Below, in pieces: positions 33,609 through 58,881 of a stretch of DNA of 64,000 nucleotides (its first letter is position 1; every line of letters begins with the position of its first letter). The notes under the pieces were generated by a model. The model searched no databases and was not told where the DNA came from. It saw only the letters and a program-made list of their open reading frames with translations. Source of the DNA: Patescibacteria group bacterium. GTDB taxonomy: Bacteria; Patescibacteriota; Minisyncoccia; Phycocordibacterales; UBA12079. The stretch is from positions 11,677 through 75,676 of the forward strand of contig JAYEKM010000008.1 in NCBI GenBank assembly GCA_034661035.1, read 5' to 3'. The position numbers were made by a program, and so were the translations under genes.

Positions 33609-34898
33609 ATGTCTGATCCAAGAGAACCGATGATTTCGGTTAAAAACATCTCTAAAAAGTATAAAATAACCCATCAACAGGGTGGTTATATTGCTATGCG
33701 AGATGTCATGGCAAATATAGCTAAAAAACCCTTTTCTTTCTTAAAAAGAAAGGTTAATAAGATTACAGGAAGAACAACCAGAGAAGACTTTTGGGCCTTA
33801 GAAGACATTAATTTTGATATTTTTAAAGGGGAAGCTGTAGGGATTATTGGTGCAAACGGAGCAGGCAAATCTACCCTTTTAAAAATCTTAACGGGTATTA
33901 CCCCACCCACCACAGGAGAAATAAAGATGTACGGAAAAGTTGCCTCTCTCCTAGAAGTTGGAACGGGATTCCATGGAGAGCTTACAGGAAGAGAAAATAT
34001 TTTTTTAAACGGGGCCATCCTTGGAATGACCAAGGAAGAGATAGCTGAAAAATTTGATGCTATTGTAAGATTTTCTGGTGTTAAAAAATTCATTGATACA
34101 CCTGTTAAAAGATATTCGTCAGGAATGTTAGTCCGTCTAGGTTTCTCGGTCGCAGCTCATATGGAGCCAGATATTCTTTTAGTTGATGAAGTCCTCGCTG
34201 TCGGTGATGCGGAGTTTCAAAAGAAATGCCTTGGTAAGATGGACGAGGTCACCAAAGAAGGAGGTCGTACTATTCTCTTTGTCAGCCATAATATGGCAGC
34301 TATCCAAAATCTCTGCAAAAGGTGTATTCTAATTGAAGAAGGTAAAATTAAAATGATTGGTAAGACAAAAGATGTTATTGATAGATATTTAAAATCTGAA
34401 ATACAAGACAATCCTCAAATTAAGTTTAAACCTGATTTAAATAAAAAAGCTCAAATCTTAGGAATAAAAATGAGGAACGAGAAGAACGAAATAATCAATC
34501 AAATTAATTATCAGGAACATTTTGAAATTGAATTACTAACGGATATCAGAGTTAAAAATAAAACTTATTATATTATAATCATAATTTACAACTCTGTTGG
34601 AAATATAATATTAACAACCACTGATAGAGATTTAGAACAATCTTTTATCAGTCAAATAGACAAAGTTAATAAAGAAAATAAACATTTAATCAGATTTCCA
34701 AATAAATTACTAAAACCAGGACAATATTATATCTCAATAAATTTAACTAGTGATAATCAAGGCGCTATAGACAAGCATAGTTCAGTGCTAAGTTTTAATA
34801 TTATAGACACCATATCTAAAAGATCTAAAGATAATGGTTACCGAGATACTGCTATTGTTGCTCCAGAAATAAACTGGATTTCCAAGGTAGAAAAATAA
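33609..34898 (+). CDS. polysaccharide/teichoic-acid export ABC ATPase (Wzt/TagH/KpsT-like) with a C-terminal substrate-binding-type domain
   Basis: Walker A GANGAGKST, signature YSSGMLVRLGF, Walker B ILLVDE; about 180-aa C-terminal extension. Confidence 0.8.
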   Translation: MSDPREPMISVKNISKKYKITHQQGGYIAMRDVMANIAKKPFSFLKRKVNKITGRTTREDFWALEDINFDIFKGEAVGIIGANGAGKSTLLKILTGITPPTTGEIKMYGKVASLLEVGTGFHGELTGRENIFLNGAILGMTKEEIAEKFDAIVRFSGVKKFIDTPVKRYSSGMLVRLGFSVAAHMEPDILLVDEVLAVGDAEFQKKCLGKMDEVTKEGGRTILFVSHNMAAIQNLCKRCILIEEGKIKMIGKTKDVIDRYLKSEIQDNPQIKFKPDLNKKAQILGIKMRNEKNEIINQINYQEHFEIELLTDIRVKNKTYYIIIIIYNSVGNIILTTTDRDLEQSFISQIDKVNKENKHLIRFPNKLLKPGQYYISINLTSDNQGAIDKHSSVLSFNIIDTISKRSKDNGYRDTAIVAPEINWISKVEK

Positions 34899-34902
34899 AA
34901 TT

Positions 34903-35640
34903 ATGAAAAAATTAGCAATTATCCCCGCTAGAGGCGGGTCAAAAAGATTGAAGAACAAAAACAGACTCCTATTAAGTGGGAAACCTTTAGTTGTTTATAC
35001 AATAGAGTCAGCAATTAAAAGTAAACTATTTGATAAAATTATTCTTTCAACTGATGATGAAAAAATCGCTAAAATAGGTAAAGATTTAGGGATATCAATA
35101 TATTATCGACCCAAAAAATATGCATCTGACACCGCCACAGTAATTCAAGCTCTCGTTGAATTAATGGAAACTTTTGAAAAAAATGGTGAAAAATATGATG
35201 TTGTTTGTCAAATGCTCCCAACTTGCCCTTTTAGAGATTTTGAAGACATTAAAAAAGGAATACAATTATTGGATAAAAAAACAGATTCTGTCATAAGTAT
35301 TTCCACCTATAATTTCCCTTTACCAAAATCACTAAGCAAAAAAGGAGACTTTATAAAACCATATTGGCCTAATTCTCCATTTTTAACAGGAAAAACAAGA
35401 ACACAGGATCAACAAATCTTTTATCATGATAATGGAGCCTTCTATATATCTTGGTGGGAATCAATAAAAAAATATAAAACTTTCTATAAAGGAGAAATAA
35501 AAGGGTATGAGATAAATCATCTAAAAACTATTGATATAGATAATAAACTTGATTTTGAAATGGCAGAAATAATATTAACACATGTTAAAGACAATAAAAA
35601 TCAATCGGAAATTAAAAAACTTTTGTCTCATTTAATTTAA
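34903..35640 (+). CDS. CMP-nonulosonic acid synthetase family cytidylyltransferase (NeuA/PseF/LegF-like)
   Basis: N-terminal AIIPARGGSKRLKNKN. Confidence 0.75.
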   Translation: MKKLAIIPARGGSKRLKNKNRLLLSGKPLVVYTIESAIKSKLFDKIILSTDDEKIAKIGKDLGISIYYRPKKYASDTATVIQALVELMETFEKNGEKYDVVCQMLPTCPFRDFEDIKKGIQLLDKKTDSVISISTYNFPLPKSLSKKGDFIKPYWPNSPFLTGKTRTQDQQIFYHDNGAFYISWWESIKKYKTFYKGEIKGYEINHLKTIDIDNKLDFEMAEIILTHVKDNKNQSEIKKLLSHLI

Positions 35641-35647
35641 TAAATTT

Positions 35648-37582
35648 ATGACCCAGTCAAAAACAAAAATCGAAAAATTATTTGATACCGATAATAAATC
35701 AACTTACATTATAAGCGAAATTGGGATAAACCATAACGGATCTCTCAAAACTGCTCTAGAACTTATTAAAGCTTCAAAAGAAGCAGGGGTAGATGCTGTT
35801 AAATTTCAGAAAAGGAATCTTAAAAAAATATATTCTGATGGTATTTTAAACAATCCAAATAATGCTGAGTGGAATTTTGATTATTTAATACCTCTTCTAA
35901 AAGAAATAGAATTATCAAAACAAGATTACAAAGTAATAAAAAAAACTTGCGATGAATTAAGCCTTGATTTAATAATAACACCTTTTGATGAAGATTCAGC
36001 TGAATTTGTTCATAAATTAGGTGTAGTTGCATACAAAATATCCTCTTCGGACATGACTAATTTTAACTTGATAAAAAAATGTGCTTCTTACAATTTACCG
36101 CTAATCATTTCAACTGGAATGTGGGACAAAAAAGATATCCAGAAATGTGTCAATTTTTATAAAAATAATAATATTAACTATGCTTTGTTATTAACAAATT
36201 CAACCTACCCAGCTCCATACGAATCAACACATTTAAAATTTATAGAGGAATTAAAAAAGATGAGTAATATAGTAGGTTACTCTGGACATGAGAGAGGTAT
36301 TTTTATTCCTGTCGCTGCTGTAGCCTTAGGGGCAAAAATAATAGAAAAACATATTACTTTCAGTAGAAATGATTATATAAAGGTAGGAAATAAACTCAGA
36401 CAACAACAAAAAGGTCCTGACCATAAAGCATCTCTCCTCCCTGAGGAATTTACTGAAATGGTAAATAATATAAGAAACTTAGAAAAATCACTCCAAAGAG
36501 ATAAGGACATAAATCAAGCTGAAAAATTAAATAGGGAGGCTTTCGCTAAATCAGCAACAGCAAAACATTTTCTGAAAAAAGGACATATTCTAACCGAAAG
36601 CGATATAATTTTTAGAGCCCCTGGTAAAGGTATATTTCCTCACGAAATAAATGAATACATTAAAAAGAAATTAACAAAAGATGTATTAAAAGATAAATAT
36701 ATCTCTAAAAATGATTTTAAAAATAACCTGTCAACAAAAGGATGGGAGAAATTTAATTTTTCGCAAAAATGGGGATTGAAATGTCGATTTCATGACTATG
36801 AAAAGTTAAAACAAATAAAACCCCCTGTTTTAGAATTTCATTTTTCTGACACTGATTTAGATGTTAGCTTTGATGAGGGGAATAATGAATCTGAGTTGAT
36901 AGTGCATGCTCCTGAAATAGTAGACAGAAAACTTATAAATTTTTGTTCTAATGATCCAGAAATTGTTAACATGTCAATAAAAACAATTCAAAAAACAATA
37001 GATAAAGCTACAAAACTTGGGAAAAAGTGGACCAAGGCAAAGACAAAGTTAGTAATTCATCTCGGAGGAATGCAGTTGAATAAATCAACTAATAAAAATA
37101 TATATACTGAATGCTTAAATAATGCTATAAATAATTTCAGTAAACTAAAATATTCACCAGATGATATAGAGATACTACCTGAAAATTTACCATCGAGACC
37201 ATGGTACCTTAACGGAGAATGGTATCAATATGGATTCACTCGAGCAGAAGATATGCTAAAATTTTGCAAACACTTTAATTTAGGAATGACCTTTGATATA
37301 TGCCATGCGGCCTTATATTGTAACAACGAGAAAGAGAGTTTGGTAGATTACGCAAAAAAAATAAGGCTGATAACTAAACATATACATATATCAGACGCAA
37401 AAGGAACTAGCGGTGAAGGAATCCAAATAAATAAAGGAGAGATAAATTTTAAAGAAGTTCTTGATGTCTTCAAAAATAAAAATTTTTCTTGGGTAACAGA
37501 AATATGGAGCGGTCATTTACACGAAGGGATTGAAACTTATAAAGCACTACTAAAATTAGAAAAATTCAATGAAATTTTATAG
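35648..37582 (+). CDS. NeuB-like sialic/nonulosonic acid synthase fused to a xylose-isomerase-like TIM-barrel (sugar-phosphate isomerase/epimerase) domain
   Basis: N-terminal IISEIGINHNGSLKTALELIKASKEAGVDAVKFQK (NeuB/PseI/LegI). The C-terminal roughly 300 aa has ..FDICHAALY..HIHISD.. of the AP-endonuclease-2/xylose isomerase-like fold. 644 aa against about 340 for NeuB. Confidence 0.7.
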   Translation: MTQSKTKIEKLFDTDNKSTYIISEIGINHNGSLKTALELIKASKEAGVDAVKFQKRNLKKIYSDGILNNPNNAEWNFDYLIPLLKEIELSKQDYKVIKKTCDELSLDLIITPFDEDSAEFVHKLGVVAYKISSSDMTNFNLIKKCASYNLPLIISTGMWDKKDIQKCVNFYKNNNINYALLLTNSTYPAPYESTHLKFIEELKKMSNIVGYSGHERGIFIPVAAVALGAKIIEKHITFSRNDYIKVGNKLRQQQKGPDHKASLLPEEFTEMVNNIRNLEKSLQRDKDINQAEKLNREAFAKSATAKHFLKKGHILTESDIIFRAPGKGIFPHEINEYIKKKLTKDVLKDKYISKNDFKNNLSTKGWEKFNFSQKWGLKCRFHDYEKLKQIKPPVLEFHFSDTDLDVSFDEGNNESELIVHAPEIVDRKLINFCSNDPEIVNMSIKTIQKTIDKATKLGKKWTKAKTKLVIHLGGMQLNKSTNKNIYTECLNNAINNFSKLKYSPDDIEILPENLPSRPWYLNGEWYQYGFTRAEDMLKFCKHFNLGMTFDICHAALYCNNEKESLVDYAKKIRLITKHIHISDAKGTSGEGIQINKGEINFKEVLDVFKNKNFSWVTEIWSGHLHEGIETYKALLKLEKFNEIL

Positions 37583-37609: not shown

Positions 37610-38572
37610 ATGAACTTAAAAAAAATAAAAAGTGATATAAAAGGGCCTGTCTTTCCAATTATTACTCCATTTACAAAAAAACATGGGGTAGACTATAAGA
37701 AGGTAAGAGAATACATAGATTTTTTATATCAAGGCGGTGCTAGAATTTTTCATGTCATGGTTCATTCCAGCAGAATTGGACTTCTGTCTGAAAAGGAGAT
37801 TATCAAGTTAAATAAAACTGTTACAAATCATACAAAATCAAAATATAAAGATTGTATTGTAATTGCAAGTGGACCAATTATAGGGTCTACTCGTCTTAAT
37901 ATTAAGATAGCAGAGGAAGCTGAAAAAGCAGGGGCAGATATAATAGGAATAATTTTTTCCGAAAGATATTACTTTAAAGATCAAATCGTAAAATATTACA
38001 AAGAAATAGCTACCAGAGTAAAGATAGGGATTCTTATTCATGAAGAACAATTAAATTCAATTCACGGAACTAAAAAAGCTCAATTTCCTCTTGATGTCCT
38101 TGATAAAATTGCTGGTATAAAAAACGTAGTTGCAATTAAAGAAGATTCAAAAAATCATGAATTTAGCTTAAAAACTATTAAATTGCTAAAAGAAAGACTC
38201 GCTATCATTGTTTCAGGAGCTGCAAAAAAACAATTCTTGGCAAGTGCTCCATATGGCTGTCACGCTTATCTAGTTGGGGTTGGTAATTTTGCCCCGTTAG
38301 TAGCCACACAATTTTACAAATATTATTTAGAAGGTAATTTAGAAATGTGTAATGAAATAATAAATGAAATAGAAACACCGTTTCTTCAAATTGCAAAAGA
38401 ATTAGGTTGGCATATCGGGTTAAAATCAGCCATGGAAATAACCAGGGTTATGAACAGAGATGAGAGACCACCATTAGAAAAATTATCTTTAACTCAACAT
38501 AAAAAAATAGAAAGTGTTTTGAAACAGATACAAAATAAATCTATCTGGAAAAAAGTGAATAAACAAAAATGA
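37610..38572 (+). CDS. DapA/NanA-family class I aldolase
   Basis: Dihydrodipicolinate synthase family fold with a candidate Schiff-base Lys in VVAIKEDS. Confidence 0.6.
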   Translation: MNLKKIKSDIKGPVFPIITPFTKKHGVDYKKVREYIDFLYQGGARIFHVMVHSSRIGLLSEKEIIKLNKTVTNHTKSKYKDCIVIASGPIIGSTRLNIKIAEEAEKAGADIIGIIFSERYYFKDQIVKYYKEIATRVKIGILIHEEQLNSIHGTKKAQFPLDVLDKIAGIKNVVAIKEDSKNHEFSLKTIKLLKERLAIIVSGAAKKQFLASAPYGCHAYLVGVGNFAPLVATQFYKYYLEGNLEMCNEIINEIETPFLQIAKELGWHIGLKSAMEITRVMNRDERPPLEKLSLTQHKKIESVLKQIQNKSIWKKVNKQK

Positions 38573-40080
38573 AATTAAAACAAGCCACAGAGATAATAAT
38601 TGATATTGAAAATTTAGTCCCTGTAGACCAAATAGAATTTAAGGATATCAAAATATGGCCATTGATTAGATCTGAAATATGGAAACAGCTAACCAACCCT
38701 GTAAAAGAAAGAAGTTCCTTAGAAAGTTCAGCGTCAACTAACAAAAATTATTTCGAAAAAATTATTTCGAAAATATTAAGAGTATTCACTTACACAAAAT
38801 ATTCTCTTTTCAAAAAAAAACAAAAACAAAAACAAGTTATCTTTCTTCCTTCCCCTAACAACAGATGGGAAAAAGTTAACGGGCAATATCTTAAACCTTT
38901 TTCTAATAGTTTACAGGACATTTTGAGAGAAATGAAAATTAAATCTATCATACTTAATTATTCGTCAACAAATCCTAAACCTCTCTACGGAAATTTTTAT
39001 CATATACGAAAAGAAATTGAACATGCTCATTCAACACAAAGAATATTACTGCTTCTGGAAAAAATCTTTAATTTAAACAAAAAACCAAGTAAAGTTTACC
39101 ACTGGGACACATTGATTAAATTTATTAGTTTTAAATATCCTATTTTATCATTAGATAAACAGTCTATAATTGATCAAACAAATAACATAATTTCTTATGA
39201 AAAAATATTCAAAAAAATATTCAAAAAGATCAAACCAAAATTATGCTTTTTAATATGCTATTATTGTCCAATAAACATGGGTTATATAAAAGCGTGTAGA
39301 TCATTAGGGATAAAAAGTGTTGAAATCCAACATGGACAACAAGGTGATTTTCATGGAATGTACACCCATTGGACCAAATTACCTCAAAACGGTTATGAAC
39401 TTCTCCCTTCACATTGGTGGAGTTGGGGAAATAAATCTGCGGAACGAATTAATAATTGGTCTAAAACAGTACACCCCGAACATCAGGCCATTGTAGGAGG
39501 AAATCCATGGATAGCTAAAAATATCAATCAAGATTATAAAATAGATGACACTTATATTGATAAATTAGAAAAGATATTGACATTAAAAAATAAAATTAAT
39601 GTTTTGGTTGCATTACAGCCAATTGAAATACCGATAAGTAATACTCTTTTTGAAGCAATTAAGAATTCCCCTTCAAAAATTAACTGGCTTATCAGACTAC
39701 ATCCAGCAATGAGTAAACAAAAAAATGAAATTGAACAATTCCTTAAAAAAACTAACAACAAAAATATTGATATTGATTATAATTATAAAATACCATTATT
39801 TAATATTCTAAAAAGAGTTGATTTTCTTATCACACCATGGTCATCAATAGCATATGAAGCACTTTTATTTAAAGTTCACCCAATCATTATTCACCCAAAC
39901 GGAAAAGATACTTTTACTGAATATATAAACGAAGGATTGTTTACTTACGCCGATTCTTCACAGAAAATAATAAATGTAATAGAAACAAATAAAAATAAAT
40001 TTATATTTAATGAAAAACAATATTATATAGAGATAGATATATTTAAAATAAAAAATTTATTAAAAAAAATAATAAAATAA
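38569..40080 (+). CDS. hypothetical protein, possibly capsule-polysaccharide biosynthesis/glycosyltransferase-like
   Basis: 503 aa; weak resemblance to capsule polysaccharide biosynthesis families; contains an A9(CAAAAA)n tract. Confidence 0.4.
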   Translation: MKLKQATEIIIDIENLVPVDQIEFKDIKIWPLIRSEIWKQLTNPVKERSSLESSASTNKNYFEKIISKILRVFTYTKYSLFKKKQKQKQVIFLPSPNNRWEKVNGQYLKPFSNSLQDILREMKIKSIILNYSSTNPKPLYGNFYHIRKEIEHAHSTQRILLLLEKIFNLNKKPSKVYHWDTLIKFISFKYPILSLDKQSIIDQTNNIISYEKIFKKIFKKIKPKLCFLICYYCPINMGYIKACRSLGIKSVEIQHGQQGDFHGMYTHWTKLPQNGYELLPSHWWSWGNKSAERINNWSKTVHPEHQAIVGGNPWIAKNINQDYKIDDTYIDKLEKILTLKNKINVLVALQPIEIPISNTLFEAIKNSPSKINWLIRLHPAMSKQKNEIEQFLKKTNNKNIDIDYNYKIPLFNILKRVDFLITPWSSIAYEALLFKVHPIIIHPNGKDTFTEYINEGLFTYADSSQKIINVIETNKNKFIFNEKQYYIEIDIFKIKNLLKKIIK

Positions 40081-40081
40081 A

Positions 40082-43188: not shown

Positions 43189-43190
43189 AT

Positions 43191-51145: not shown

Positions 51146-51146
51146 A

Positions 51147-51791: not shown

Positions 51792-51793
51792 AA

Positions 51794-52843: not shown

Positions 52844-52844
52844 C

Positions 52845-53900
52845 TTATTTTTGATAGATAAAGATAATTTTTTTAATAAGGTCCTCTAGATTGTGACTCC
52901 TTTCAACCTCTTTTCTTAAATCTAATTTAATTTTTTCCTTTTCGTGTTCAGACAGATTAATTATTCCTATTATTTTTTGTGATAAATCAGAGCTATCTTT
53001 TAATTTAAAGAATAATTTATCTTGGTGGACACCAAAAACATTCTTTGATGAATCATTACTAGAAATTGTTATTAAGCCACAGGACATAGCTTCCAAGATA
53101 GTTTTGTCTAAACTGCCCGTATGACTAGTATTTACAAATAAGTTAGACTCTTGCAAATAATTAACAATATTATTTGTAGGGACTGGGCCAATAAAATTTA
53201 TTACCTCTTCTAAGCCGTCATTTTTAACTTTCTTTTTTAAGCTTTCCAAGTATTTTTCTTGACCTGCTTTACCCACACCCCCAATAATATCTAATTCAAT
53301 TTTTGAATTATATTTTTGCAAGATTTTTATTGCGTCAATTAATGTCTCATAATCTTTGATAGGAGAAATCCTACCAACGGTAACAACCCGAAAGGCCTTA
53401 TTTTTAATAAGGCTATCTTTACTTATAAATTGTTCTACATCAATTCCATGCCCTGTGATATTTAATTTCTTAGTTTTCAAACGAAACGATTCGGGAGTAG
53501 CTGAAAAAATAATATAAGTTAATTTTTCGGCCAATCTTAGCTTTAAATCGACACTTTTATGCATATACCAAAGTCCTATCTTTTTACCCATTAAACGCCA
53601 AAATAAGCCTCCTAGAACAATATACTCCGGGTTCATATGAACAAAGACGTTATCGTAATTTTTTCGTTCAGACCAAATATACTTATAAAAATTAAAAGCA
53701 TACTTAAGGCGTGATTTCCCCTGTTCCTTTCCTAAGGATAAGACTTTCACATTATTAGGTAAGTCGTAATCCCTTGCCTCTAAGGCTATTACGATTACCT
53801 GTTCACAGTGTTTTGCAAATTCATTAACCCACCCATGAAAAAAACCGAGGACACCATCATCATTTTTATCTACTTTTTGTGTAAGTATTAATAGTTTCAT
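52845..53900 (-). CDS. family 4 glycosyltransferase
   Basis: NTSHTGSLDKTILEAMSCGLITISS (E-x7-E region). Confidence 0.75.
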   Translation of the reverse strand: MKLLILTQKVDKNDDGVLGFFHGWVNEFAKHCEQVIVIALEARDYDLPNNVKVLSLGKEQGKSRLKYAFNFYKYIWSERKNYDNVFVHMNPEYIVLGGLFWRLMGKKIGLWYMHKSVDLKLRLAEKLTYIIFSATPESFRLKTKKLNITGHGIDVEQFISKDSLIKNKAFRVVTVGRISPIKDYETLIDAIKILQKYNSKIELDIIGGVGKAGQEKYLESLKKKVKNDGLEEVINFIGPVPTNNIVNYLQESNLFVNTSHTGSLDKTILEAMSCGLITISSNDSSKNVFGVHQDKLFFKLKDSSDLSQKIIGIINLSEHEKEKIKLDLRKEVERSHNLEDLIKKIIFIYQK

Positions 53901-54160
53901 ATTTTAGAATTAATGAAATACGATTTGAGCCTATTTTGTAAAAACATTCTACCATGGTAAGTCTTCAAATACTTCTCTCTTTTTATAGCATCATCTTCAT
54001 CTAAACATGATTCATAATACAATAAAATTAAAGGTTTTCTATGTTTAGTTGAATTCACCAGACCTGTATTATGTTGCTCAAATCTTAATTTTAAATTTTT
54101 TGTAGCTCCTGTATACCATTTACCATCTTTTTCGCTTTGTATTATGTGAGTATATATCAT
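53897..54160 (-). CDS. small GIY-YIG nuclease-domain protein (87 aa)
   Basis: MIYTHIIQSEKDGKWYTGATKNLKLRFEQH..LLYYESCLDEDDAIKREKYLK. Its ends overlap both neighbouring GT4 genes by 4 nt. Confidence 0.7.
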   Translation of the reverse strand: MIYTHIIQSEKDGKWYTGATKNLKLRFEQHNTGLVNSTKHRKPLILLYYESCLDEDDAIKREKYLKTYHGRMFLQNRLKSYFINSKI

Positions 54161-55311
54161 AAAGTCTCTAACGGGACTAGTATATTATTTATCGTTCGGA
54201 ACCAAGCATCCTGTAAAATTTTAAGAACCTCATCTTCAGTTTGAGACATCTTCCTCGAATAATCATTATAAGCTTTCTGCTCAAACTCCCTCAACAAATC
54301 AGGATATTGCTGAGCTTTAATAATATTCTCAACCAAACATTCTTTATCTCCAACACTACATAAAAATGCATTATTGCTACTCAAAACTTCTCCGACAATT
54401 CCCACTTTAGTAGTTAAAATTGGACAATGAGAAAGAACTGCCTCGCTTAAGGTTAAACCATAACCCTCATAATCAGAAGTTGAAAGAAATAAATCAGCCG
54501 TTTTATAATAAGTAATTGGATCACCTACCCATTTCTTAAAAATTATATTTTCTTCTAGACCAGCTCTTCTAGCTTGTTGTTTTAATGTTTTACGGAGAGA
54601 ACCTTCCCCCACAATAACCAAGCCTGTTTTAGGGAATATTTTAACAACTTTTTTCATGGCTGAAATAGCCATAGAAATATTTTTTTCTTTTTCTAAACGA
54701 CTCATCATAACCATAATAAATTTAAATTGAGGATATCTTTCTTTTAAATTAAAACTAGGAGTAAAAACCTGGATAAAAGTAGGGCTAGTAAAAATAGGGA
54801 GAACAGTAACTTTAGTCTGTAATTCCTCAGACAGCGAAGACTTAATTCTTTTAGAAACAACTCTAATGTGATCAGCCTTGGATAGTAAAAAAGTAGACAT
54901 CCAAGATCTAATCCTATTAGTGAAAGAATGTCTTATAAAATAATGATTAAAAATATCAGTATGAATCTGAAGTTCCAATTTAGCCTTTAGTTTTTTAACT
55001 ATCCTCCAAGCAATAAACCCTGTTTCGTAAGGGTCTTGAGCTGTTACTAAATCAACATCCTTTAATTTGGTAGCAATTTTTATTGCATTTAAAATATAAT
55101 GAAATTTATTTCGTGAGTTGGTGGGGTAAACAATAACTTTTTCGCTTATTTTTATCTTTTTTTTATTTGGGATATCTTTTGACTGTTTATTCAAAACAAT
55201 TATGTGGAGTTCGCCTACTATCGTGCCATAGTTAACCATTCTCCGACAAACAGAGCTACTTTCTTCAAATATTTTTTTGTCAGTGCTAATCATTAAAATT
55301 TTCATATTCAT
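54157..55311 (-). CDS. family 4 glycosyltransferase
   Basis: STSDYEGYGLTLSEAVLSHCPILTTKVG. Confidence 0.75.
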   Translation of the reverse strand: MNMKILMISTDKKIFEESSSVCRRMVNYGTIVGELHIIVLNKQSKDIPNKKKIKISEKVIVYPTNSRNKFHYILNAIKIATKLKDVDLVTAQDPYETGFIAWRIVKKLKAKLELQIHTDIFNHYFIRHSFTNRIRSWMSTFLLSKADHIRVVSKRIKSSLSEELQTKVTVLPIFTSPTFIQVFTPSFNLKERYPQFKFIMVMMSRLEKEKNISMAISAMKKVVKIFPKTGLVIVGEGSLRKTLKQQARRAGLEENIIFKKWVGDPITYYKTADLFLSTSDYEGYGLTLSEAVLSHCPILTTKVGIVGEVLSSNNAFLCSVGDKECLVENIIKAQQYPDLLREFEQKAYNDYSRKMSQTEDEVLKILQDAWFRTINNILVPLETL

Positions 55312-55372
55312 TGACTTTTTTTTTGTTTAATATATTATATTAGTAATCATTATGAAAAGCGTCGTCAAAGGG

Positions 55373-55900
55373 CTAGTCCCGCGAAGGCGCTTTTTGTTTT
55401 TCTAGCTTCTTTAATTCACTCCTCACATCTTCCAAATACTGAATTGCTCTTTTCCAACCGCAAGCTTTTCTTAACAGAAAAGAAGTTTTCTTTCTATTAG
55501 GACTTAAAGCAACCTTGAATTTATTTTTGTTTTCTAAATATTTAACTAAACTAGCGAAATCTCCATCACTCGTTATTAAAATAGCATTATCATATTCTAA
55601 CAACAAATCAACAGTTGTTAATGTTAAGTCAACGTCAACATTACCTTTTGGTTTCCCATTACTTTTTTTTGAAATTTCTTTAAAAGAAATTTCAAAGCCA
55701 GCATTTCTTAACAAGGAATAAAATTTTTCATTTTCTTTTATGTACCCTATAAACCAAAAAGCTTTAACAACTTTATACTTATCTTTTAAATAAATTCTTA
55801 ATTTAAAAATATCTACCGCCCAACCATCATCTTTCGTACCAAGATACAAGTTCTGAGCATCTATAAAAGCATAATTATTTTCTTTGTTTTTATTTTTCAT
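55373..55900 (-). CDS. NYN-domain (LabA-like PIN-fold) protein, paralogue 1
   Basis: NNYAFIDAQNL..NVDVDLTL..ILITSDGDFASLV; the C-terminus and stop sit in a GC-rich hairpin. Confidence 0.7.
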   Translation of the reverse strand: MKNKNKENNYAFIDAQNLYLGTKDDGWAVDIFKLRIYLKDKYKVVKAFWFIGYIKENEKFYSLLRNAGFEISFKEISKKSNGKPKGNVDVDLTLTTVDLLLEYDNAILITSDGDFASLVKYLENKNKFKVALSPNRKKTSFLLRKACGWKRAIQYLEDVRSELKKLEKQKAPSRD

Positions 55901-57086
55901 ATTTTTTAAGAGCCTCTTCTACAGAATTTGCTACAATAAGCCCCTCCCCTTTTTCAAACTCTTTCTTACTTTCCATTAATTCTGAATGGAAAATATCTTC
56001 TATCAAAAGTTTTTCTAAATTATCTAAAGTATTTTGAATGGAAAATTGTTTTGATTTTTCGTAAGCGTTTTGGATAATCCCTTGTCTAAAAAGATCATTC
56101 TTTAAGACTTTAAAAATAGCTTTTTTCAAAGCTTCTTTGTCATTAGGCTCAACCAAAATCCCTTCTACATTATTTTCAATCAATTCAGGTAAAGAACAGA
56201 TATTAGTAGTAATCACGGGCAAACCTAAAGTCATTGCTTCCACAGTATCAAAAGAAAAACTTTCCCAATTAGTATTGAAAACAAAAATATCAGCCAATTG
56301 TTTTTGTTTTAATAATTCTTCTCTAGTTAGTTGCCCTGTCAAAATAACTTTTCCCTGCAAACCTAACCTTTCGATTGTTTCTTCTAATTCTTCTTTTTGA
56401 GGGCCACCTCCAACAATAACTAATTTAACTTCTGGAATTTCTTGCAAAATATTCGGCATCGTTTCAATCAACACTTTAAAGCCTTTCCAAGGTACAAGTC
56501 TCCCCACAGATAACAACACATTACTTTCGACTTTATGGACTTTATGAACTTTTAACTCGTTTATTTCTATCCCGTTATAAATTACCTTAATTTTTTCAGG
56601 AGCAATCCCCCAATTCACAATAACTTGTTTAAAGTAATGACTAGGAACAATAATTTTATCAGCCTGTTTAACTACACAAAATTGAATTTTCTTAAAAAAC
56701 CGAACTTTTAAGCCATAGTTATTTCTCGTAGAGAAAGTATCTAAATCATCTTTTACACCAAACCTCTGAACCCCTTGCTCCCATGCATAATCACCAGCAA
56801 TCCTAATGAAAAACTTTTTCCTTAAAAATTTGTTAGCTAACATAGTCGGCAAACCAACACTCACTGGATCTTGAGCATAAATAACATCAACCCCCTTAGC
56901 TCTTTTAAGAATTTTGAAAAAATAAATAATATGACGAATAATTTTTGGTAAATTCCTAACTTCACCAAAAGAAAGGACCACCACTTCAATCCCCCTTTTT
57001 GGTAATTCATCAAAAAGAAGCTTTGAATAAGTAGCCGGTCCACCAATATCCGGCGGGTATATTCCTGTTGTAATTAAAATTCTCAT
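55890..57086 (-). CDS. family 4 glycosyltransferase
   Basis: FNTNWESFSFDTVEAMTLGLPVITT; AAGGAG SD. Confidence 0.75.
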   Translation of the reverse strand: MRILITTGIYPPDIGGPATYSKLLFDELPKRGIEVVVLSFGEVRNLPKIIRHIIYFFKILKRAKGVDVIYAQDPVSVGLPTMLANKFLRKKFFIRIAGDYAWEQGVQRFGVKDDLDTFSTRNNYGLKVRFFKKIQFCVVKQADKIIVPSHYFKQVIVNWGIAPEKIKVIYNGIEINELKVHKVHKVESNVLLSVGRLVPWKGFKVLIETMPNILQEIPEVKLVIVGGGPQKEELEETIERLGLQGKVILTGQLTREELLKQKQLADIFVFNTNWESFSFDTVEAMTLGLPVITTNICSLPELIENNVEGILVEPNDKEALKKAIFKVLKNDLFRQGIIQNAYEKSKQFSIQNTLDNLEKLLIEDIFHSELMESKKEFEKGEGLIVANSVEEALKKYEK

Positions 57087-57152
57087 ATATTTAACTTGAC
57101 TTTTTTACTCCTTAAGATAATATTAAACTAATCACCAACGGAAAAGATTACC

Positions 57153-57683
57153 CTACAAGGTTTCGTCCTTGTAGGGCCTTTTCTTTTTATAAGAAAGCTT
57201 CTTATCTAAATTGTTCATAAACCTTAAATATGGTCTAACTATTTTAAATCTCAAAAGAGCAGAAAATTTAAAGAAGTTCGGAATCAAAACCGCTTTTAGC
57301 TTATTCTGTTCTAATAGATATTTGACCAAACAATAAAAATCCCCATCTCCACTTATAATTATTGCTTTATCAAAATTAGGATATTCAATCATTGTTTGTA
57401 ATACTAACTCAGCATCAACGTTCCCTTTAGTAGTTCCATCCTTATATCCCAAAGTTGGTTTAAAAACACAAATAAAGCCAGCTTCTTGTAAGAACTTATA
57501 TAAATCATTATTTCCCTCTACGAAACCAATAAATAGAAAAGCTTTATTAATCTTATATTTTTCTTTCAGATAAACACGAAACCTAGCAAAGTCCAATTTC
57601 CAACCTAAAGACTGAATACTTAAATTTAAGTTCTGGCTATCTATAAAAGCATAATTATTTTTTTTATCTTTCTTTTGCATCAT
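57153..57683 (-). CDS. NYN-domain (LabA-like PIN-fold) protein, paralogue 2
   Basis: NNYAFIDSQNL..NVDAELVL..IIISGDGDFYCLV; about 45% identical to paralogue 1; the C-terminus overlaps hairpin CCCTACAAGG-N6-CCTTGTAGGG. Confidence 0.7.
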   Translation of the reverse strand: MMQKKDKKNNYAFIDSQNLNLSIQSLGWKLDFARFRVYLKEKYKINKAFLFIGFVEGNNDLYKFLQEAGFICVFKPTLGYKDGTTKGNVDAELVLQTMIEYPNFDKAIIISGDGDFYCLVKYLLEQNKLKAVLIPNFFKFSALLRFKIVRPYLRFMNNLDKKLSYKKKRPYKDETL

Positions 57684-58881
57684 ATAATTTTTCTCTGTTG
57701 GTAAAAAGAATCATTTCTTTCATCTCCCGTGCGATCTTCTCCCAGTCATACTCTTTTACGACCATTTGATAAGCTTGTTTTACGACGCGATCTCTAAGGT
57801 CTTGGTTGCCAAGTAAAAATTTCACTTTTTCAGCAATTGATTCTGGATCTTTAACCTGACAAAACAAACCCGTCTCATTATCTTTTAGAAAATCAGGGAT
57901 TCCTCCAACAGAAGTCGCAATGACAGGTGTTTTGGTTATCATAGCCTCCAAAAAAGAATTACCTAACCCCTCTGACAAAGAAGGTCTAATAAAGATATCT
58001 GAGATTTTCAAGTATTTAACTAGTTCATCCTGTTTGATATAAGAAATAAAAATAACCCTGTCTTCCAAGTTTCTTTCCGTTGTTATTTTTTCTAAATTTG
58101 TTTTATCTTCTCCATCCCCTATTAAAATAAGTTTGATATTATCTGGCAAATAGGTCAGCGCCTTAATTAAATAATCTAAACCATTCTTGTAAGTCAGTCT
58201 ACCTGTGTGGATTATAAACCTATCTTCCAATTGTTTACCTAGCTCTTGTTCAAGTTTTCTTAGATCTTTTATTGAAGATGTTTGTGAAAATACTTTTATA
58301 TCAACCCCGTTAGGAATAACCTCAATCGGGCATTGAGCCCCCAAAGTCTTCGCCCAATCAGCCAAATAATTACTAATACATTGAATTTGATCAGCTCTTT
58401 TGAAGATATTCTCAAACTGACCTTTTATAAATTTAGTTCTTTTCTGAATATATTTTTGACTATCACCCTCTTGTAAAGTAAGTAAGAAAGGAACTTGTGG
58501 ATTACTTTTTTTAAATTTTGATGCAGCTAATCCCGCGTAACTTGCCATAATCGCCCAAATTGAATCATAATTCCCTTGTTTATTTAGTTTTTTTGCCATA
58601 TATTGACCAAAAAAAGCAAAGAATACCTTGTCAACCATCGGATGACCTATACCCACTCTAAAGACAGTTATATTGCCAATTTTCTCCTTCTGAGCAAGAT
58701 TTTTATCCATTTTAGCCGTTATCATATGAAATTCAATATCAGTTAATCTGTCTGTTATTTCTTTAACAGCTACTTCTGCCCCTCCCACAAAAGGATAATA
58801 GGCAGTCGAAAACATAAGTACTTTCTTAGACATATTATTATTGTAACAGAAAACCTTAAGTTTAGAAGAATTATTATTCAT
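57664..58881 (-). CDS. family 4 glycosyltransferase
   Basis: RPSLSEGLGNSFLEAMITKTPVIATSVGG; the likely start is the internal MSKKVLMFSTAYYP. Confidence 0.75.
   Translation of the reverse strand: MNNNSSKLKVFCYNNNMSKKVLMFSTAYYPFVGGAEVAVKEITDRLTDIEFHMITAKMDKNLAQKEKIGNITVFRVGIGHPMVDKVFFAFFGQYMAKKLNKQGNYDSIWAIMASYAGLAASKFKKSNPQVPFLLTLQEGDSQKYIQKRTKFIKGQFENIFKRADQIQCISNYLADWAKTLGAQCPIEVIPNGVDIKVFSQTSSIKDLRKLEQELGKQLEDRFIIHTGRLTYKNGLDYLIKALTYLPDNIKLILIGDGEDKTNLEKITTERNLEDRVIFISYIKQDELVKYLKISDIFIRPSLSEGLGNSFLEAMITKTPVIATSVGGIPDFLKDNETGLFCQVKDPESIAEKVKFLLGNQDLRDRVVKQAYQMVVKEYDWEKIAREMKEMILFTNREKLYDAKER

What the first reader, a model, noticed from the sequence alone, without database searches (positions are those of the whole stretch)
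33609..58881. About 25-kb surface-glycan locus mixing nonulosonic-acid, 3-amino-6-deoxyhexose and fucosylation genes with roughly 12 GTs and 5-6 methyltransferases
The locus holds a Wzt/Wzm exporter and an upstream WbaP-like initiating transferase (21588). It carries a CMP-NulO synthetase, a NeuB-like synthase, a DapA/NanA-family aldolase, FdtA-like isomerase plus DegT aminotransferase, and a GT11 alpha-1,2-fucosyltransferase. Further genes are GT2, GT4, GT8-like and DUF616 transferases. The methyltransferases comprise tandem paralogues at 50474-51791, a DUF268-like gene and a TIGR04325-like domain fused to a GT. This is a very large glycosylation investment for what appears to be a reduced genome. 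It points to a heavily decorated, O-methylated glycan, for example on pili, an S-layer or the cell surface.
Basis: partly seen in the sequence, partly recalled or inferred. Interest (0 to 1): 0.5.

Follow-up and report, generated by a model that had tools for sequence, protein, structure and literature searches.

The report
Saccharibacteria capped surface-glycan gene cluster
This is a real, strain-variable gene cluster in a tiny-genome Saccharibacteria-type bacterium that builds a methylated surface sugar chain, probably carrying an acidic sialic-acid-like sugar, and exports it through an ABC transporter; the type of system is well known, but several of its enzymes are uncharacterised.

Summary
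Window 33609-58881 holds 26 tightly packed genes in two convergent operons. They include Wzt with a carbohydrate-binding C-domain, a PseF-like cytidylyltransferase, a NeuB synthase, a DHDPS-family enzyme, FdtA plus DegT, a GT11 with the HxRRGDY motif, 13 glycosyltransferase-like genes and 5 methyltransferase domains.

Corrections:
- wzm (27715-28542) lies outside the interval, split from wzt by an RND/MFP pair.
- The two adjacent methyltransferases are only 26% identical.
- Two NYN genes and a GIY-YIG gene interrupt the GT4 operon.
- No nucleotide-sugar precursor genes, ligase or oligosaccharyltransferase are in the window.

The organism is Patescibacteria, with Saccharibacteria as nearest relatives. 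Relatives share WbaP, PAP2, Wzm and the Wzt ATPase domain (78-90% identity). The Wzt carbohydrate-binding domain (19-29%) and the genes after it differ.

The NeuB enzyme is a widespread, undescribed NeuB-SAF-TIM-barrel fusion and is not an equivalog of NeuB or PseI. The 503-aa neighbour is a sequence-orphan GT-B protein with an HP motif that sits near a cytidylyltransferase in all three contexts seen.

Best model: ABC-transporter-dependent, lipid-linked glycan assembly with an ulosonic-acid and/or methyl cap read by Wzt. This is a new variant of a known kind, of moderate interest.

The parts
21558..22940 (+). WbaP-type polyprenyl-phosphate hexose-1-phosphate transferase (initiating enzyme), about 5 TM segments plus a C-terminal catalytic domain
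   Evidence: Bac_transf 178 bits. TIGR03025 296 bits vs cut-off 295.55. TM scan. 82-86% identical in relatives L010 and L011.
23185..23733 (+). PAP2-family phosphatase, probable undecaprenyl-diphosphate phosphatase (lipid-carrier recycling)
   Evidence: PAP2 87 bits. Best NCBIfam hits are undecaprenyl-diphosphatases, below cut-off. Conserved next to WbaP in L010 and L011.
27715..28542 (+). Wzm, ABC-2 permease of the glycan exporter
   Evidence: ABC2_membrane 58.5 bits. Best NCBIfam hit is the galactan Wzm/RfbD permease. 83-90% identical in relatives.
28626..33523 (-). AcrB-type RND transporter (28626-31751) and membrane-fusion protein (31844-33523), lying between wzm and wzt. Probably not part of the glycan pathway.
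   Evidence: ACR_tran 587 bits; HlyD_3 and HlyD_D23. Same position in L010 and L011. In L013 and L014 wzm and wzt are adjacent and the pair lies beside them.
33609..34898 (+). Wzt: ABC ATPase (residues about 1-265) plus C-terminal carbohydrate-binding domain (about 266-429)
   Evidence: ABC_tran 76 bits plus Wzt_C 43.2 bits. Best PDB hit is full-length Aquifex Wzt 8dku/7k2t, E 5e-67, query residues 52-379. ATPase domain 78-85% identical to relatives, C-domain 19-29%.
34903..35640 (+). CMP-ulosonic-acid synthetase (PseF-like cytidylyltransferase)
   Evidence: CTP_transf_3 96 bits. PseF TIGR03584 175 bits, below the 205.7 cut-off. 58.5% identical to the L018 homologue in the same gene order.
35648..37582 (+). 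NeuB-SAF-xylose-isomerase-like TIM barrel fusion: PEP-dependent ulosonic-acid synthase with an uncharacterised C-terminal domain
   Evidence: NeuB 232, SAF 24, AP_endonuc_2 73 bits. Below the NeuB and PseI equivalog cut-offs. More than 100 clusters of the same architecture at 54-64% identity in several phyla. The TIM subfamily is mostly found fused to NeuB.
37610..38572 (+). DHDPS/NanA-family class I aldolase-like enzyme with Schiff-base lysine motif AIKE (K177); role inferred as acting on the 2-keto-3-deoxy acid
   Evidence: DHDPS 83 bits. Weak best NCBIfam hit KdgD. PDB hits are DapA at only 1e-11. A homologue follows the fusion in L018.
38569..40080 (+). 503-aa sequence-orphan GT-B protein (p503); candidate CMP-ulosonate transferase and chain terminator
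   Evidence: Only 31 clusters in 5.8 billion proteins. No PDB sequence hit, even with a profile. AF2 pLDDT 87.7 with a GT-B fold. Conserved (E/D)xQHG and RLHP motifs 124 aa apart. Near a CTP_transf_3 gene in three unrelated contexts.
40082..41782 (+). GT-A-like N-domain fused to a TIGR04325 SAM-methyltransferase
   Evidence: Glycos_transf_2 22.3 bits (just below cut-off). TIGR04325 224 bits. The two halves are separate adjacent genes in L015 (61% and 46% identity), and the MT half is present in C. concisus L002 (51%).
41787..42788 (+). GT8-like / nucleotide-diphospho-sugar transferase
   Evidence: Nucleotid_trans 23.3 and Glyco_transf_8 22.4 bits. Homologues next to the TIGR04325 MT in L002 (47%), in L015 (40%) and in L011 (39%).
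42760..44282 (+). FdtA-type 3,4-ketoisomerase (42760-43188) and DegT/FdtB-type PLP aminotransferase (43191-44282): the dTDP-3-amino-3,6-dideoxyhexose branch
   Evidence: FdtA 159.5 bits; DegT 368 bits. RGKHAH motif. The same pair follows the MT and GT8-like genes in C. concisus, where RmlA- and RmlB-like genes follow.
44304..46968 (+). DUF268 methyltransferase (44304-45023), GT11 alpha-1,2-fucosyltransferase-like (45020-45922) and GT2 (45907-46968): a semi-conserved backbone block
   Evidence: Pfam. HIRRGDY motif. 75%, 64.5% and 42% identical and syntenic in relative L011.
46965..53900 (-). Distal part of the minus-strand operon: GT2+TPR, Methyltransf_11, TOD1_MUCI70 (DUF616), GT4, two Methyltransf_23, GT4, GT4
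   Evidence: Pfam. GT4 at 52845-53900 is 65% identical to L012. GT4 at 51794-52843 is 50% identical to L015.
53897..54160 (-). 87-aa GIY-YIG nuclease-domain gene embedded in the operon (probably a mobile passenger)
   Evidence: GIY-YIG 54.7 bits. 58% identical copy at a different site in L010, and a degraded remnant at window 23006-23176. Both Logan contigs end inside it.
54157..58881 (-). Proximal part of the minus-strand operon: GT4 (54157-55311), NYN (55373-55900), GT4 (55890-57086), NYN (57153-57683), GT4 (57664-58881)
   Evidence: Pfam. The two NYN proteins are 46% identical. No defence-system match beyond a weak NYN hit.

Best explanation
This is the strain-variable surface-glycan assembly locus of a Patescibacteria (Saccharibacteria-like) bacterium. 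It works by the ABC-transporter-dependent route.

Proposed steps:
1. A WbaP-type transferase primes a polyprenyl phosphate carrier, and a PAP2 phosphatase recycles it.
2. Cytoplasmic GT2, GT4, GT8-like, GT11 and DUF616 transferases extend the chain. The sugars include a fucose-type residue and a 3-amino-3,6-dideoxyhexose (FdtA plus DegT).
3. Five SAM-methyltransferase domains methylate the chain.
4. A three-gene module makes a CMP-activated 2-keto-3-deoxy (ulosonic, sialic-acid-like) sugar of unknown identity. The module comprises a PseF-like cytidylyltransferase, a NeuB-SAF-TIM fusion and a DHDPS-like enzyme.
5. The adjacent orphan GT-B protein (p503, with an HP motif) probably transfers that sugar, most likely to the non-reducing end.
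6. The cap (ulosonic acid and/or methyl) stops elongation. It is recognised by the strain-specific C-terminal carbohydrate-binding domain of Wzt, which licenses export by Wzm/Wzt.
7. Attachment outside the membrane is carried out by enzymes not encoded in the window.

Shown: gene families, operon structure, the conserved core against the variable cassette, the GT-B fold and motifs of p503, and the module's distribution. Inferred: the cap role, the donor of p503, the sugar identities and the acceptor.
For: - Core machinery is present: WbaP-type PGT, PAP2, Wzm, and Wzt with Wzt_C. Wzt aligns to full-length Aquifex Wzt including its carbohydrate-binding domain (CBD).
- No Wzx- or Wzy-type protein was found among the ORFs of at least 80 aa.
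- Five relatives keep WbaP, PAP2, Wzm and the Wzt ATPase domain at 78-90% identity. The Wzt C-domain drops to 19-29%.
- The genes immediately after wzt differ by strain: a sulfotransferase in L011; a STELLO-GT, MT and phosphodiesterase-like gene in L013; an MT-like gene and GT10 in L014; the CMP-ulosonate module here. This is the pattern expected of a matched cap-enzyme and cap-reader cassette.
- Precedents: a beta-Kdo cap added by WbbB both terminates the chain and creates the epitope read by the transporter's CBM (PMC9587256). A methyl cap with a WbaP-type initiator and Wzm/Wzt operates in Gram-positive S-layer glycan synthesis (PMC2943079).
- p503 has invariant H378-P379 and an (E/D)xQHG motif 124 residues upstream. 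In sialyltransferases the HP and D/E-D/E-G motifs are about 125 aa apart and bind CMP-Neu5Ac (PMC2169525).
- p503 homologues lie near a CTP_transf_3 gene in the window, in L015 and in L017. L017 also carries Wzm and Wzt_C.
- Low GC (24-27% vs 33-35%) and 40-64% identical modules in Campylobacter concisus, Bacteroidota and other metagenome contigs show mosaic acquisition, as is typical of O-antigen-like loci.
Against: - No ligase, Wzy_C oligosaccharyltransferase or LCP enzyme is in the window, and no acceptor gene was identified.
- No RmlA/RmlB, Gmd/Fcl or hexose-precursor genes for the NeuB enzyme are in the 64 kb.
- wzm is separated from wzt by 5 kb.
- Nothing proves the minus-strand GT4/MT operon feeds the same polymer.
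- The fold of p503 matches UDP-GlcNAc 2-epimerases and NeuC slightly better than transferases, so its transferase role rests on context and motifs only.
- Whether the ulosonic acid is terminal or internal is not determinable from sequence.
- The CBD has no detectable close relatives to link it to any ligand.
Confidence: 0.6

Rival explanations
1. The interval holds two or more independent pathways. The plus-strand operon (wzt to GT2, 33609-46968) makes the ABC-exported polymer. The convergent minus-strand GT4/methyltransferase operon (46965-58881) glycosylates something else, for example a membrane glycolipid or a protein such as the LTD-PKD surface protein. That operon is co-directional with, and overlaps, the LTD-PKD, TraG-like and DUF4015 genes.
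For: - The two operons are convergent, and the minus operon has its own upstream genes with overlapping stop and start codons.
- GT4 enzymes commonly make glycolipids; NCBIfam hits include MGlcDAG synthase, IagA/BgsA and SdgA/B-type protein O-GTs at low scores.
- Minus-operon homologues in L012 occur without a detectable wzt nearby.
Against: - Only one initiating transferase and one exporter are visible in 64 kb.
- The minus operon has no flippase or exporter of its own.
- A GT4 of this operon (51794-52843) has a 50% identical homologue in L015, in the same cluster as the p503, MT and GT8-like block.
- Both operons share the low GC content.
Confidence: 0.3
2. p503 is not a transferase. It is a NeuC-like hydrolysing NDP-sugar 2-epimerase that supplies the free hexose condensed by the NeuB domain. 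The ulosonic acid is then added by another GT (for example the GT-A-like domain of the 566-aa fusion) and may be internal rather than a cap.
Against: - No Epimerase_2 Pfam hit, and no sequence similarity to any solved epimerase even with a family profile.
- p503 homologues occur next to a KdsA-type (DAHP_synth_1) synthase in L015, and in L017 with no ulosonate synthase at all. A 2-epimerase has no obvious role in either, whereas a cytidylyltransferase is common to all three contexts.
- The widespread NeuB-TIM module elsewhere lacks p503.
Confidence: 0.2
3. The polymer is a teichoic-acid-like polyol-phosphate or secondary cell-wall polymer. It would be exported by a TagGH-type transporter, with p503 acting as a TagF-like CDP-glycerol or CDP-ribitol phosphotransferase, and anchored to peptidoglycan.
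For: - The best NCBIfam hits for Wzt are TagH models (213 and 192 bits, below cut-off).
- p503 has a marginal Glyphos_transf hit (22.7 vs 22.1) and NCBI names it a CDP-glycerol glycerophosphotransferase family protein.
- Structural neighbours include TarL, TagF, Bcs3 and Cps3D.
- The L017 homologue sits by an Fe-ADH_2/DHQS-like gene and a cytidylyltransferase, which could make a CDP-polyol.
Against: - There are no TagD, TarI or TarJ-type genes.
- The only cytidylyltransferase here is CTP_transf_3 (PseF/KdsB type), sitting beside a NeuB-type synthase.
- Wzt carries a Wzt_C domain, which is typical of O-polysaccharide-type exporters.
- The initiator is WbaP-type, not TagO/WecA-type.
- The 13 GTs, GT11 and FdtA/DegT indicate a complex heteroglycan.
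Confidence: 0.12
4. The low-GC block is a mis-binned or chimeric piece of another organism's O-antigen cluster joined to a Saccharibacteria contig.
For: GC drops to 24-27% in 38.5-47 kb. The closest homologues of several genes are from other phyla.
Against: - The variable block starts inside a wzt gene whose ATPase half is 85% identical to a Saccharibacteria relative.
- DUF268 and GT11 (75% and 64.5%) and a GT4 (65%) inside the block have syntenic Saccharibacteria counterparts.
- An independent assembly of run SRR26901924 reproduces 33466-54098 and 54167-62604 exactly.
Confidence: 0.03

Closest known systems
S-layer glycan (slg) cluster of Geobacillus stearothermophilus NRS 2004/3a (WsaP, WsaC-F, Wzm/Wzt, WsaB)
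   Same: A WbaP-type initiator is combined with Wzm/Wzt export in a cell without an outer membrane. A glycosyltransferase is fused to a methyltransferase (WsaE), and O-methylation is proposed as the chain-terminating export signal. GC is low and the ORFs are tight and overlapping. FdtA/QdtB-type amino-sugar genes are known from related S-layer glycans (PMC2943079).
   Different: No Wzy_C O-oligosaccharyltransferase (WsaB), S-layer gene or rmlABCD in the window. wzm and wzt are split. The GT/MT complement is far larger, and there is an ulosonic-acid module. The domain order of the GT-MT fusion differs.
Terminally capped O-polysaccharide systems: E. coli O8/O9a (WbdD methyl / methyl-phosphate cap) and Klebsiella O12 / Raoultella terrigena (WbbB beta-Kdo cap) with Wzt carbohydrate-binding domains
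   Same: Wzt carries a C-terminal carbohydrate-binding domain. An ulosonic-acid donor pathway and methyltransferases lie next to wzt. The CBD is serotype- or strain-specific while the ATPase domain is conserved (PMC9587256).
   Different: No WbbB/GT99 or WbdD homologue. The candidate cap transferase is an orphan GT-B family. The acid is made by a NeuB-type rather than a KdsA-type synthase. The initiator is WbaP-type, not WecA. There is no lipid A-core acceptor in this organism type (background knowledge).
Nonulosonic acid pathways (NeuB/NeuA, PseI/PseF, LegI/LegF)
   Same: A NeuB-family PEP-condensing domain with a SAF domain, next to a CTP_transf_3 cytidylyltransferase that is closest to PseF.
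   Different: Both proteins score below equivalog cut-offs. The synthase carries a C-terminal xylose-isomerase-like TIM barrel. There are no NeuC, PseB/C/H/G or LegB/C/H/G genes. A DHDPS-family gene follows instead; most homologous modules elsewhere have an SDR.
dTDP-3-amino-3,6-dideoxyhexose pathway (FdtA/FdtB of Aneurinibacillus thermoaerophilus; QdtA/QdtB)
   Same: An FdtA-family isomerase immediately followed by a DegT aminotransferase.
   Different: No RmlA/RmlB and no FdtC/QdtC acetyltransferase in the window. A DUF268 methyltransferase follows instead.
GT11 alpha-1,2-fucosyltransferases (e.g. Helicobacter pylori FutC, E. coli WbsJ)
   Same: Full-length PF01531 match (118 bits) and an HxRRGDY motif.
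   Different: No NCBIfam equivalog. No GDP-fucose synthesis genes nearby. Donor and acceptor are untested.

Membership tests
ABC-transporter-dependent glycan export with a substrate-reading Wzt (Wzm/Wzt-CBD type) | ABC-2 permease (Wzm) present | tested here: met
   ABC2_membrane 58.5 bits at 27715-28542; best NCBIfam hit is a Wzm/RfbD permease.
ABC-transporter-dependent glycan export with a substrate-reading Wzt (Wzm/Wzt-CBD type) | Wzt ATPase with C-terminal Wzt_C carbohydrate-binding domain | tested here: met
   ABC_tran 76 bits plus Wzt_C 43.2 bits (cut-off 30.4); aligns to full-length Aquifex Wzt 8dku over query residues 52-379.
ABC-transporter-dependent glycan export with a substrate-reading Wzt (Wzm/Wzt-CBD type) | wzm and wzt adjacent and co-transcribed | tested here: not met
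   They are separated by 5 kb of opposite-strand RND/MFP genes. They are adjacent in the more distant relatives L013 and L014. This is a typical arrangement rather than a strict requirement.
ABC-transporter-dependent glycan export with a substrate-reading Wzt (Wzm/Wzt-CBD type) | No Wzx flippase or Wzy polymerase needed | tested here: met
   No Polysacc_synt, Wzy or Wzy_C family hit among the non-nested window ORFs of at least 80 aa. The rest of the genome was not seen.
ABC-transporter-dependent glycan export with a substrate-reading Wzt (Wzm/Wzt-CBD type) | Non-reducing-end cap that terminates the chain and is bound by the CBD | not testable with these tools
   Only indirect evidence: the CBD is 19-29% identical between relatives against 78-85% for the ATPase domain, and the genes next to wzt differ by strain.
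N-acetylneuraminate / legionaminate synthase (NeuB, TIGR03569) or pseudaminate synthase (PseI, TIGR03586) | NeuB catalytic domain plus SAF domain | tested here: met
   PF03102 232 bits; SAF 23.7 bits. PDB PseI 8h2c 4e-41 and NeuB 1xuu 1e-39.
N-acetylneuraminate / legionaminate synthase (NeuB, TIGR03569) or pseudaminate synthase (PseI, TIGR03586) | Score above the curated equivalog cut-off | tested here: not met
   292 vs 399.65 for NeuB; 205 vs 340 for PseI.
N-acetylneuraminate / legionaminate synthase (NeuB, TIGR03569) or pseudaminate synthase (PseI, TIGR03586) | Companion genes that make the 2-acetamido hexose substrate (NeuC, or PseB/C/H/G, or LegB/C/H/G) | tested here: not met
   No Epimerase_2, Polysacc_synt_2 or SDR, and no PseH/PseG-type hits in the window. 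They are also not conserved beside homologous fusions elsewhere.
CMP-nonulosonate synthetase (PseF, TIGR03584) | CTP_transf_3 fold and a full-length match above the equivalog cut-off | tested here: inconclusive
   PF02348 96 bits. The PseF model is matched over 1-219 of 222 positions, but at 175 bits against a 205.7 cut-off.
FdtA/FdtB dTDP-3-amino-3,6-dideoxyhexose pathway | FdtA-family isomerase with paired catalytic histidines, next to a DegT aminotransferase | tested here: met
   PF05523 159.5 bits; RGKHAH at residues 57-62; DegT 368 bits in the next gene. The residue roles are from memory of the FdtA literature.
FdtA/FdtB dTDP-3-amino-3,6-dideoxyhexose pathway | RmlA and RmlB to supply dTDP-4-keto-6-deoxyglucose | tested here: not met
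   None in the 64-kb window. They are present beside the homologous block in C. concisus.
GT11 alpha-1,2-fucosyltransferase | PF01531 full-length match and HxRRGDY motif | tested here: met
   118 bits over 5-298 of 300 residues; HIRRGDY at 164-170.
GT11 alpha-1,2-fucosyltransferase | GDP-fucose donor and alpha-1,2 linkage | not testable with these tools
   No Gmd/Fcl genes in the window. An activity assay is needed.
Bacterial CMP-sugar (sialyl / Kdo) transferases of GT-B type, considered for p503 | GT-B two-Rossmann fold | tested here: met
Bacterial CMP-sugar (sialyl / Kdo) transferases of GT-B type, considered for p503 | HP motif in the C-terminal domain and an acidic D/E-D/E-G motif about 125 aa upstream | tested here: inconclusive
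   H378-P379 are invariant. The upstream motif is (E/D)xQHG, not D/E-D/E-G, with a spacing of 124 aa (motif definition in PMC2169525). 2-epimerases also carry a histidine at a comparable position (from memory).
Bacterial CMP-sugar (sialyl / Kdo) transferases of GT-B type, considered for p503 | Sequence membership in a CAZy sialyl or Kdo transferase family | tested here: not met
   The only Pfam hit is a marginal Glyphos_transf match. No PDB sequence hit with a single sequence or a profile.
TagF-like CDP-polyol phosphotransferases (PF04464), considered for p503 | Significant PF04464 match plus a CDP-glycerol or CDP-ribitol supply gene | tested here: inconclusive
   22.7 bits against a 22.1 cut-off, over 83 residues only. 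No TagD/TarI-type gene in the window.
Gram-positive S-layer protein O-glycosylation (slg) clusters | WbaP-type initiator, Wzm/Wzt and a GT-MT fusion | tested here: met
   Model described in PMC2943079.
Gram-positive S-layer protein O-glycosylation (slg) clusters | Wzy_C-domain O-oligosaccharyltransferase and an S-layer protein target | tested here: not met
   No Wzy_C hit and no multi-TM candidate in the window. A Wzy_C+TPR protein does flank the related Zambryskibacteria cluster L017.

The most novel reading that the evidence does not exclude
The PseF-like cytidylyltransferase, NeuB-SAF-TIM fusion and DHDPS-like module makes a previously undescribed ulosonic acid. The p503 family is a new glycosyltransferase family that transfers it as a chain-terminating anionic cap. 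The cap enzyme set and the Wzt carbohydrate-binding domain are exchanged together as a 'cap-and-reader' cassette among Saccharibacteria: sulfate in one strain, methyl or fucose in others, ulosonic acid here. This exchange would diversify the epibiont's surface for host attachment or phage escape.
Probability: 0.25. Interest if true: 0.65.

Novelty: new variant of a known kind. Interest (0 to 1): 0.4.

Why it matters
Saccharibacteria and other Patescibacteria live attached to host bacteria with very small genomes, and what decorates their surface is largely unknown. I found no paper in the searchable library linking Saccharibacteria to nonulosonic acids.

This locus shows three things:
- Such an organism devotes at least 26 genes to a capped, methylated and probably acidic glycan.
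- The cassette is swapped between close relatives starting inside the exporter's substrate-reading domain.
- It relies on two uncharacterised enzyme families. One is a NeuB-TIM-barrel fusion widespread across phyla. The other is a rare GT-B family that sits near a cytidylyltransferase in each context examined.

The absence of precursor pathways nearby also raises a testable idea: the sugars or their nucleotides may depend on genes elsewhere in the genome or on the host. None of this overturns the known ABC-transporter-dependent paradigm. It extends that paradigm to a poorly studied lineage and nominates concrete enzymes for biochemical work.

Tried and rejected
- Single-sequence AlphaFold of p503 gave an unusable model, pLDDT 35.8. 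It was repeated with a 25-sequence alignment.
- phmmer and a family profile of p503 against all PDB sequences found nothing meaningful.
- A homologue search with only the Wzt C-domain found nothing. I therefore could not test whether this CBD travels with NeuB-TIM modules. A small BLAST gave only a weak hit to the Wzt_C protein of the Bacteroidota cluster L004.
- Attempts to extend beyond the window failed: there was no record for the DUF4015 product, and only an 8.4-kb Logan contig for the TraG-like gene. The presence of RmlA/B, Gmd/Fcl, LCP or Wzy_C elsewhere in the genome is therefore unknown.
- The defence-system reading of the NYN, GIY-YIG and 'GT4-conflict' hits was rejected. PADLOC gave only weak NYN matches. 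The GT4-conflict Pfam scores (24-38 bits) are far below the general Glycos_transf_1 scores for the same proteins (110-151 bits).
- The 'recent tandem duplication' reading of the two Methyltransf_23 genes was rejected at 26% identity.
- Literature searches for the NeuB-isomerase fusion, TIGR04325, and nonulosonic acids in Saccharibacteria returned nothing relevant.
- The chimeric-assembly reading was rejected.

Full report
**Observation.** ORF listing and HMM scans confirm a dense glycan locus. Between 33609 and 58881 there are 26 genes in two convergent operons that meet at 46965-46968.

The plus operon runs in this order:
- Wzt (ABC_tran plus Wzt_C)
- a CTP_transf_3 cytidylyltransferase
- a 644-aa NeuB-SAF-AP_endonuc_2 fusion
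- a DHDPS-family protein
- a 503-aa protein with only a marginal Glyphos_transf hit ('p503')
- a 566-aa GT-A-like / TIGR04325 methyltransferase fusion
- a GT8-like protein
- FdtA and DegT
- a DUF268 methyltransferase
- GT11
- GT2

The minus operon, in coordinate order from the convergence point to its 5' end at 58881, carries GT2+TPR, Methyltransf_11, TOD1_MUCI70 (DUF616), GT4, two Methyltransf_23, two GT4, GIY-YIG, GT4, NYN, GT4, NYN and GT4. GT11 has the HIRRGDY motif, FdtA has RGKHAH, and the DHDPS-like protein keeps an AIKE lysine motif.

**Corrections to the observation.**
- Wzm is not in the interval. It is at 27715-28542, and an AcrB-type RND gene and an MFP gene on the opposite strand lie between it and wzt.
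- The WbaP-type initiator (21558-22940) passes TIGR03025. It and a PAP2 phosphatase (23185-23733) sit further upstream, separated from wzm by RelA/SpoT, a SLOG protein and a 23S-IVP protein.
- The 'tandem paralogue' methyltransferases are 26% identical.
- Across the non-nested ORFs of at least 80 aa in the window there is no NDP-sugar dehydratase or epimerase, no nucleotidyltransferase other than CTP_transf_3, no Wzx/Wzy, no Wzy_C and no LCP.

**Organism and authenticity.**
- NCBI labels the identical proteins 'MAG: Patescibacteria group bacterium' on a 95-kb contig.
- Using the RND protein as an anchor, the nearest genomes (75-85% identity) are Candidatus Saccharibacteria or Patescibacteria MAGs.
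- Housekeeping genes (FtsA/FtsZ, aminoacyl-tRNA synthetases, YchF) flank the locus.
- An independent Logan assembly reproduces window 33466-54098 and 54167-62604 exactly.
- Syntenic relatives carry 64-90% identical copies of WbaP, PAP2, Wzm, the Wzt ATPase domain, DUF268, GT11 and one GT4.
- The locus is therefore native, despite its GC of 24-27% at 38.5-47 kb against 33-35% in the flanks.

**Conserved core versus variable cassette.**
- In L013 and L014 the order is glycan genes, then wzt, then wzm, with the MFP-RND pair next to them. In the window, L010 and L011 the MFP-RND pair lies between wzt and wzm. The split is therefore a derived but conserved rearrangement.
- Wzm is 83-90% identical and the Wzt ATPase domain 78-85% identical among relatives. 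The Wzt C-terminal domain is only 19-29% identical. The hypervariable region begins inside wzt.
- The genes immediately downstream differ by strain: a sulfotransferase in L011; a STELLO-type GT, a methyltransferase and a phosphodiesterase/sulfatase-like protein in L013; a methyltransferase-like protein and a GT10 fucosyltransferase in L014; and the CMP-ulosonate module here.
- DUF268-GT11-GT2 is a semi-conserved block (L011: 75%, 64.5% and 42% identity). The window-specific insertions are 34903-41782 and 42760-44282.

**The acidic-sugar module.**
- The synthase scores below the NeuB (292 vs 399.65) and PseI (205 vs 340) equivalog cut-offs. The cytidylyltransferase scores below PseF (175 vs 205.7).
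- The N-half of the synthase matches solved PseI and NeuB about equally. The C-half matches only the uncharacterised MJ1311 TIM barrel.
- The NeuB-SAF-TIM architecture is widespread. More than 100 clusters share 54-64% identity, including Campylobacter concisus, Arcobacteraceae, Bacteroidota and marine metagenomes.
- Searching the TIM domain alone against 1.84 billion representatives gave only 486 hits. Of the best 150, 69 are of fusion length. All nine of the ten sampled representatives that are longer than the stand-alone size (399-765 aa, some truncated at the N-terminus) carry a NeuB and/or SAF domain before the TIM barrel. About 26 are of stand-alone size. The domain is thus a dedicated NeuB partner.
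- Elsewhere the usual neighbours are an overlapping upstream SDR and a downstream cytidylyltransferase. The arrangement here (cytidylyltransferase, fusion, DHDPS-like) recurs in the closest homologue, L018.
- No NeuC-, Pse- or Leg-type precursor genes accompany the module anywhere I looked.
- I conclude that it makes a CMP-activated 2-keto-3-deoxy acid whose identity is open. I infer that the DHDPS-like enzyme acts on the free keto-acid, because Schiff-base chemistry on 2-keto-3-deoxy acids is what this family does.

**p503.**
- This family is rare: 31 clusters in 5.8 billion proteins. It has no detectable sequence relative in the PDB, even with a profile.
- With a 25-sequence alignment AlphaFold gives pLDDT 87.7. 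The fold is GT-B.
- The family has invariant H378-P379 after a beta-strand of the C-domain, and an (E/D)xQHG motif 124 residues upstream. Bacterial sialyltransferases have HP and D/E-D/E-G motifs about 125 residues apart, with the HP histidine contacting the CMP phosphate (PMC2169525). The equivalent histidine is conserved in beta-Kdo transferases (PMC9587256).
- Homologues lie near a CTP_transf_3 gene in three unrelated contexts: here; with a KdsA-type synthase and a HAD phosphatase in L015; and in a Zambryskibacteria Wzm/Wzt_C cluster, L017.
- The downstream block is also conserved. The GT-like, TIGR04325-MT and GT8-like genes recur in L015. The MT, GT8-like, FdtA and DegT genes recur in C. 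concisus, followed there by RmlA/RmlB-like genes.
- A CMP-sugar transferase role is the most economical reading. A NeuC-like epimerase or a TagF-like phosphotransferase remain rivals.

**Mechanistic model.** The components fit the ABC-transporter-dependent pathway. The chain is primed on polyprenyl phosphate, fully assembled in the cytoplasm and terminated by a non-reducing-end modification. The Wzt carbohydrate-binding domain recognises that modification, and Wzm/Wzt exports the chain. Two precedents apply:
- The beta-Kdo cap of Raoultella/Klebsiella O12 both stops polymerisation and creates the epitope for the transporter's CBM.
- The 2-O-methyl cap of the Geobacillus S-layer glycan is made with a WbaP-type initiator, a GT-MT fusion and Wzm/Wzt in a cell without an outer membrane.

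The strain-specific CBD, next to strain-specific candidate cap enzymes, is what this model predicts. What remains unshown:
- that the ulosonic acid is terminal;
- that the minus-strand operon feeds the same polymer;
- the sugar identities;
- the acceptor (peptidoglycan, lipid, S-layer protein or pilin).

**Novelty and score.** The kind of system is well known. The new elements are the lineage, the split exporter genes, an uncharacterised NeuB-TIM/DHDPS variant of ulosonic-acid synthesis, an orphan GT-B family, and the apparent cap-and-reader cassette exchange. I rate it a new variant of a known kind, with interest 0.4.

Noticed in passing
window 28626-33523 (minus strand); L010-L014: An AcrB-type RND transporter and a 559-aa membrane-fusion protein sit beside, or between, wzm and wzt in all five Saccharibacteria/Patescibacteria relatives examined. 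An RND/MFP pair in a lineage thought to lack an outer membrane, always next to the glycan exporter, is unexplained.
   Followed up: partly
window 55373-55900 and 57153-57683 (minus strand); L013 16352-16846: Two NYN-domain (LabA-like RNase) paralogues, 46% identical, alternate with GT4 genes inside the operon. The homologue in relative L013 sits elsewhere, next to a gene of LeuRS size (802 aa). No defence-system match beyond a weak NYN hit.
   Followed up: partly
window 53897-54160 (minus strand), window 23006-23176; L010 11177-11428: An 87-aa GIY-YIG gene is embedded between two GT4 genes. A degraded remnant lies between WbaP and PAP2, exactly where relative L010 has an intact 58%-identical copy. 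Both Logan contigs of the same sample terminate inside the intact copy. Together these suggest a mobile or multicopy selfish element.
   Followed up: partly
window 58874-63240 (minus strand): Upstream of the GT4 operon and co-directional with it, with overlapping stop and start codons, are three genes. They are a membrane-anchored LTD+PKD surface protein (signal-anchor plus C-terminal TM), a TraG/VirD4/HerA-like ATPase without TM segments, and a DUF4015 putative glycoside hydrolase. Their relation to the glycan genes is unknown.
   Followed up: no
window 26775-27305 (minus strand); L010-L014: A 176-aa protein with four hydrophobic segments and no Pfam match is conserved (44-60% identity) divergently next to wzm in every relative. 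It is a possible unrecognised membrane component of the export or attachment system.
   Followed up: partly
L011 4086-4970; L013 608-4096; L014 2829-5151: Relatives carry different modifying enzymes directly after wzt: a sulfotransferase; a STELLO-GT, MT and phosphodiesterase/sulfatase-like set; and a GT10 fucosyltransferase. This hints at alternative terminal caps, including sulfate.
   Followed up: partly
L002 (Campylobacter concisus GCA_002165855.1) 5478-20887: C. concisus has the NeuB-TIM fusion with an overlapping upstream SDR. It lies downstream of ManC/GMD-type genes and upstream of a TIGR04325-MT, GT8-like, FdtA, DegT, RmlA, RmlB block. This cultivable organism could be used to identify the unknown ulosonic acid.
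   Followed up: partly
L017 (Candidatus Zambryskibacteria GCA_001824105.1) 1-9422: Another CPR lineage has a Wzm 74% identical to the window's. It also has Wzt_C, a cytidylyltransferase, a p503 homologue and a flanking 732-aa Wzy_C+TPR protein. This suggests a CPR-wide conserved exporter and a candidate ligase or oligosaccharyltransferase type to look for in this genome.
   Followed up: no
window 14314-15570 (minus strand): A 418-aa ORF with one N-terminal hydrophobic segment and no Pfam match lies between the YceG gene and a sigma-70-region-4/HARE-HTH gene.
   Followed up: no
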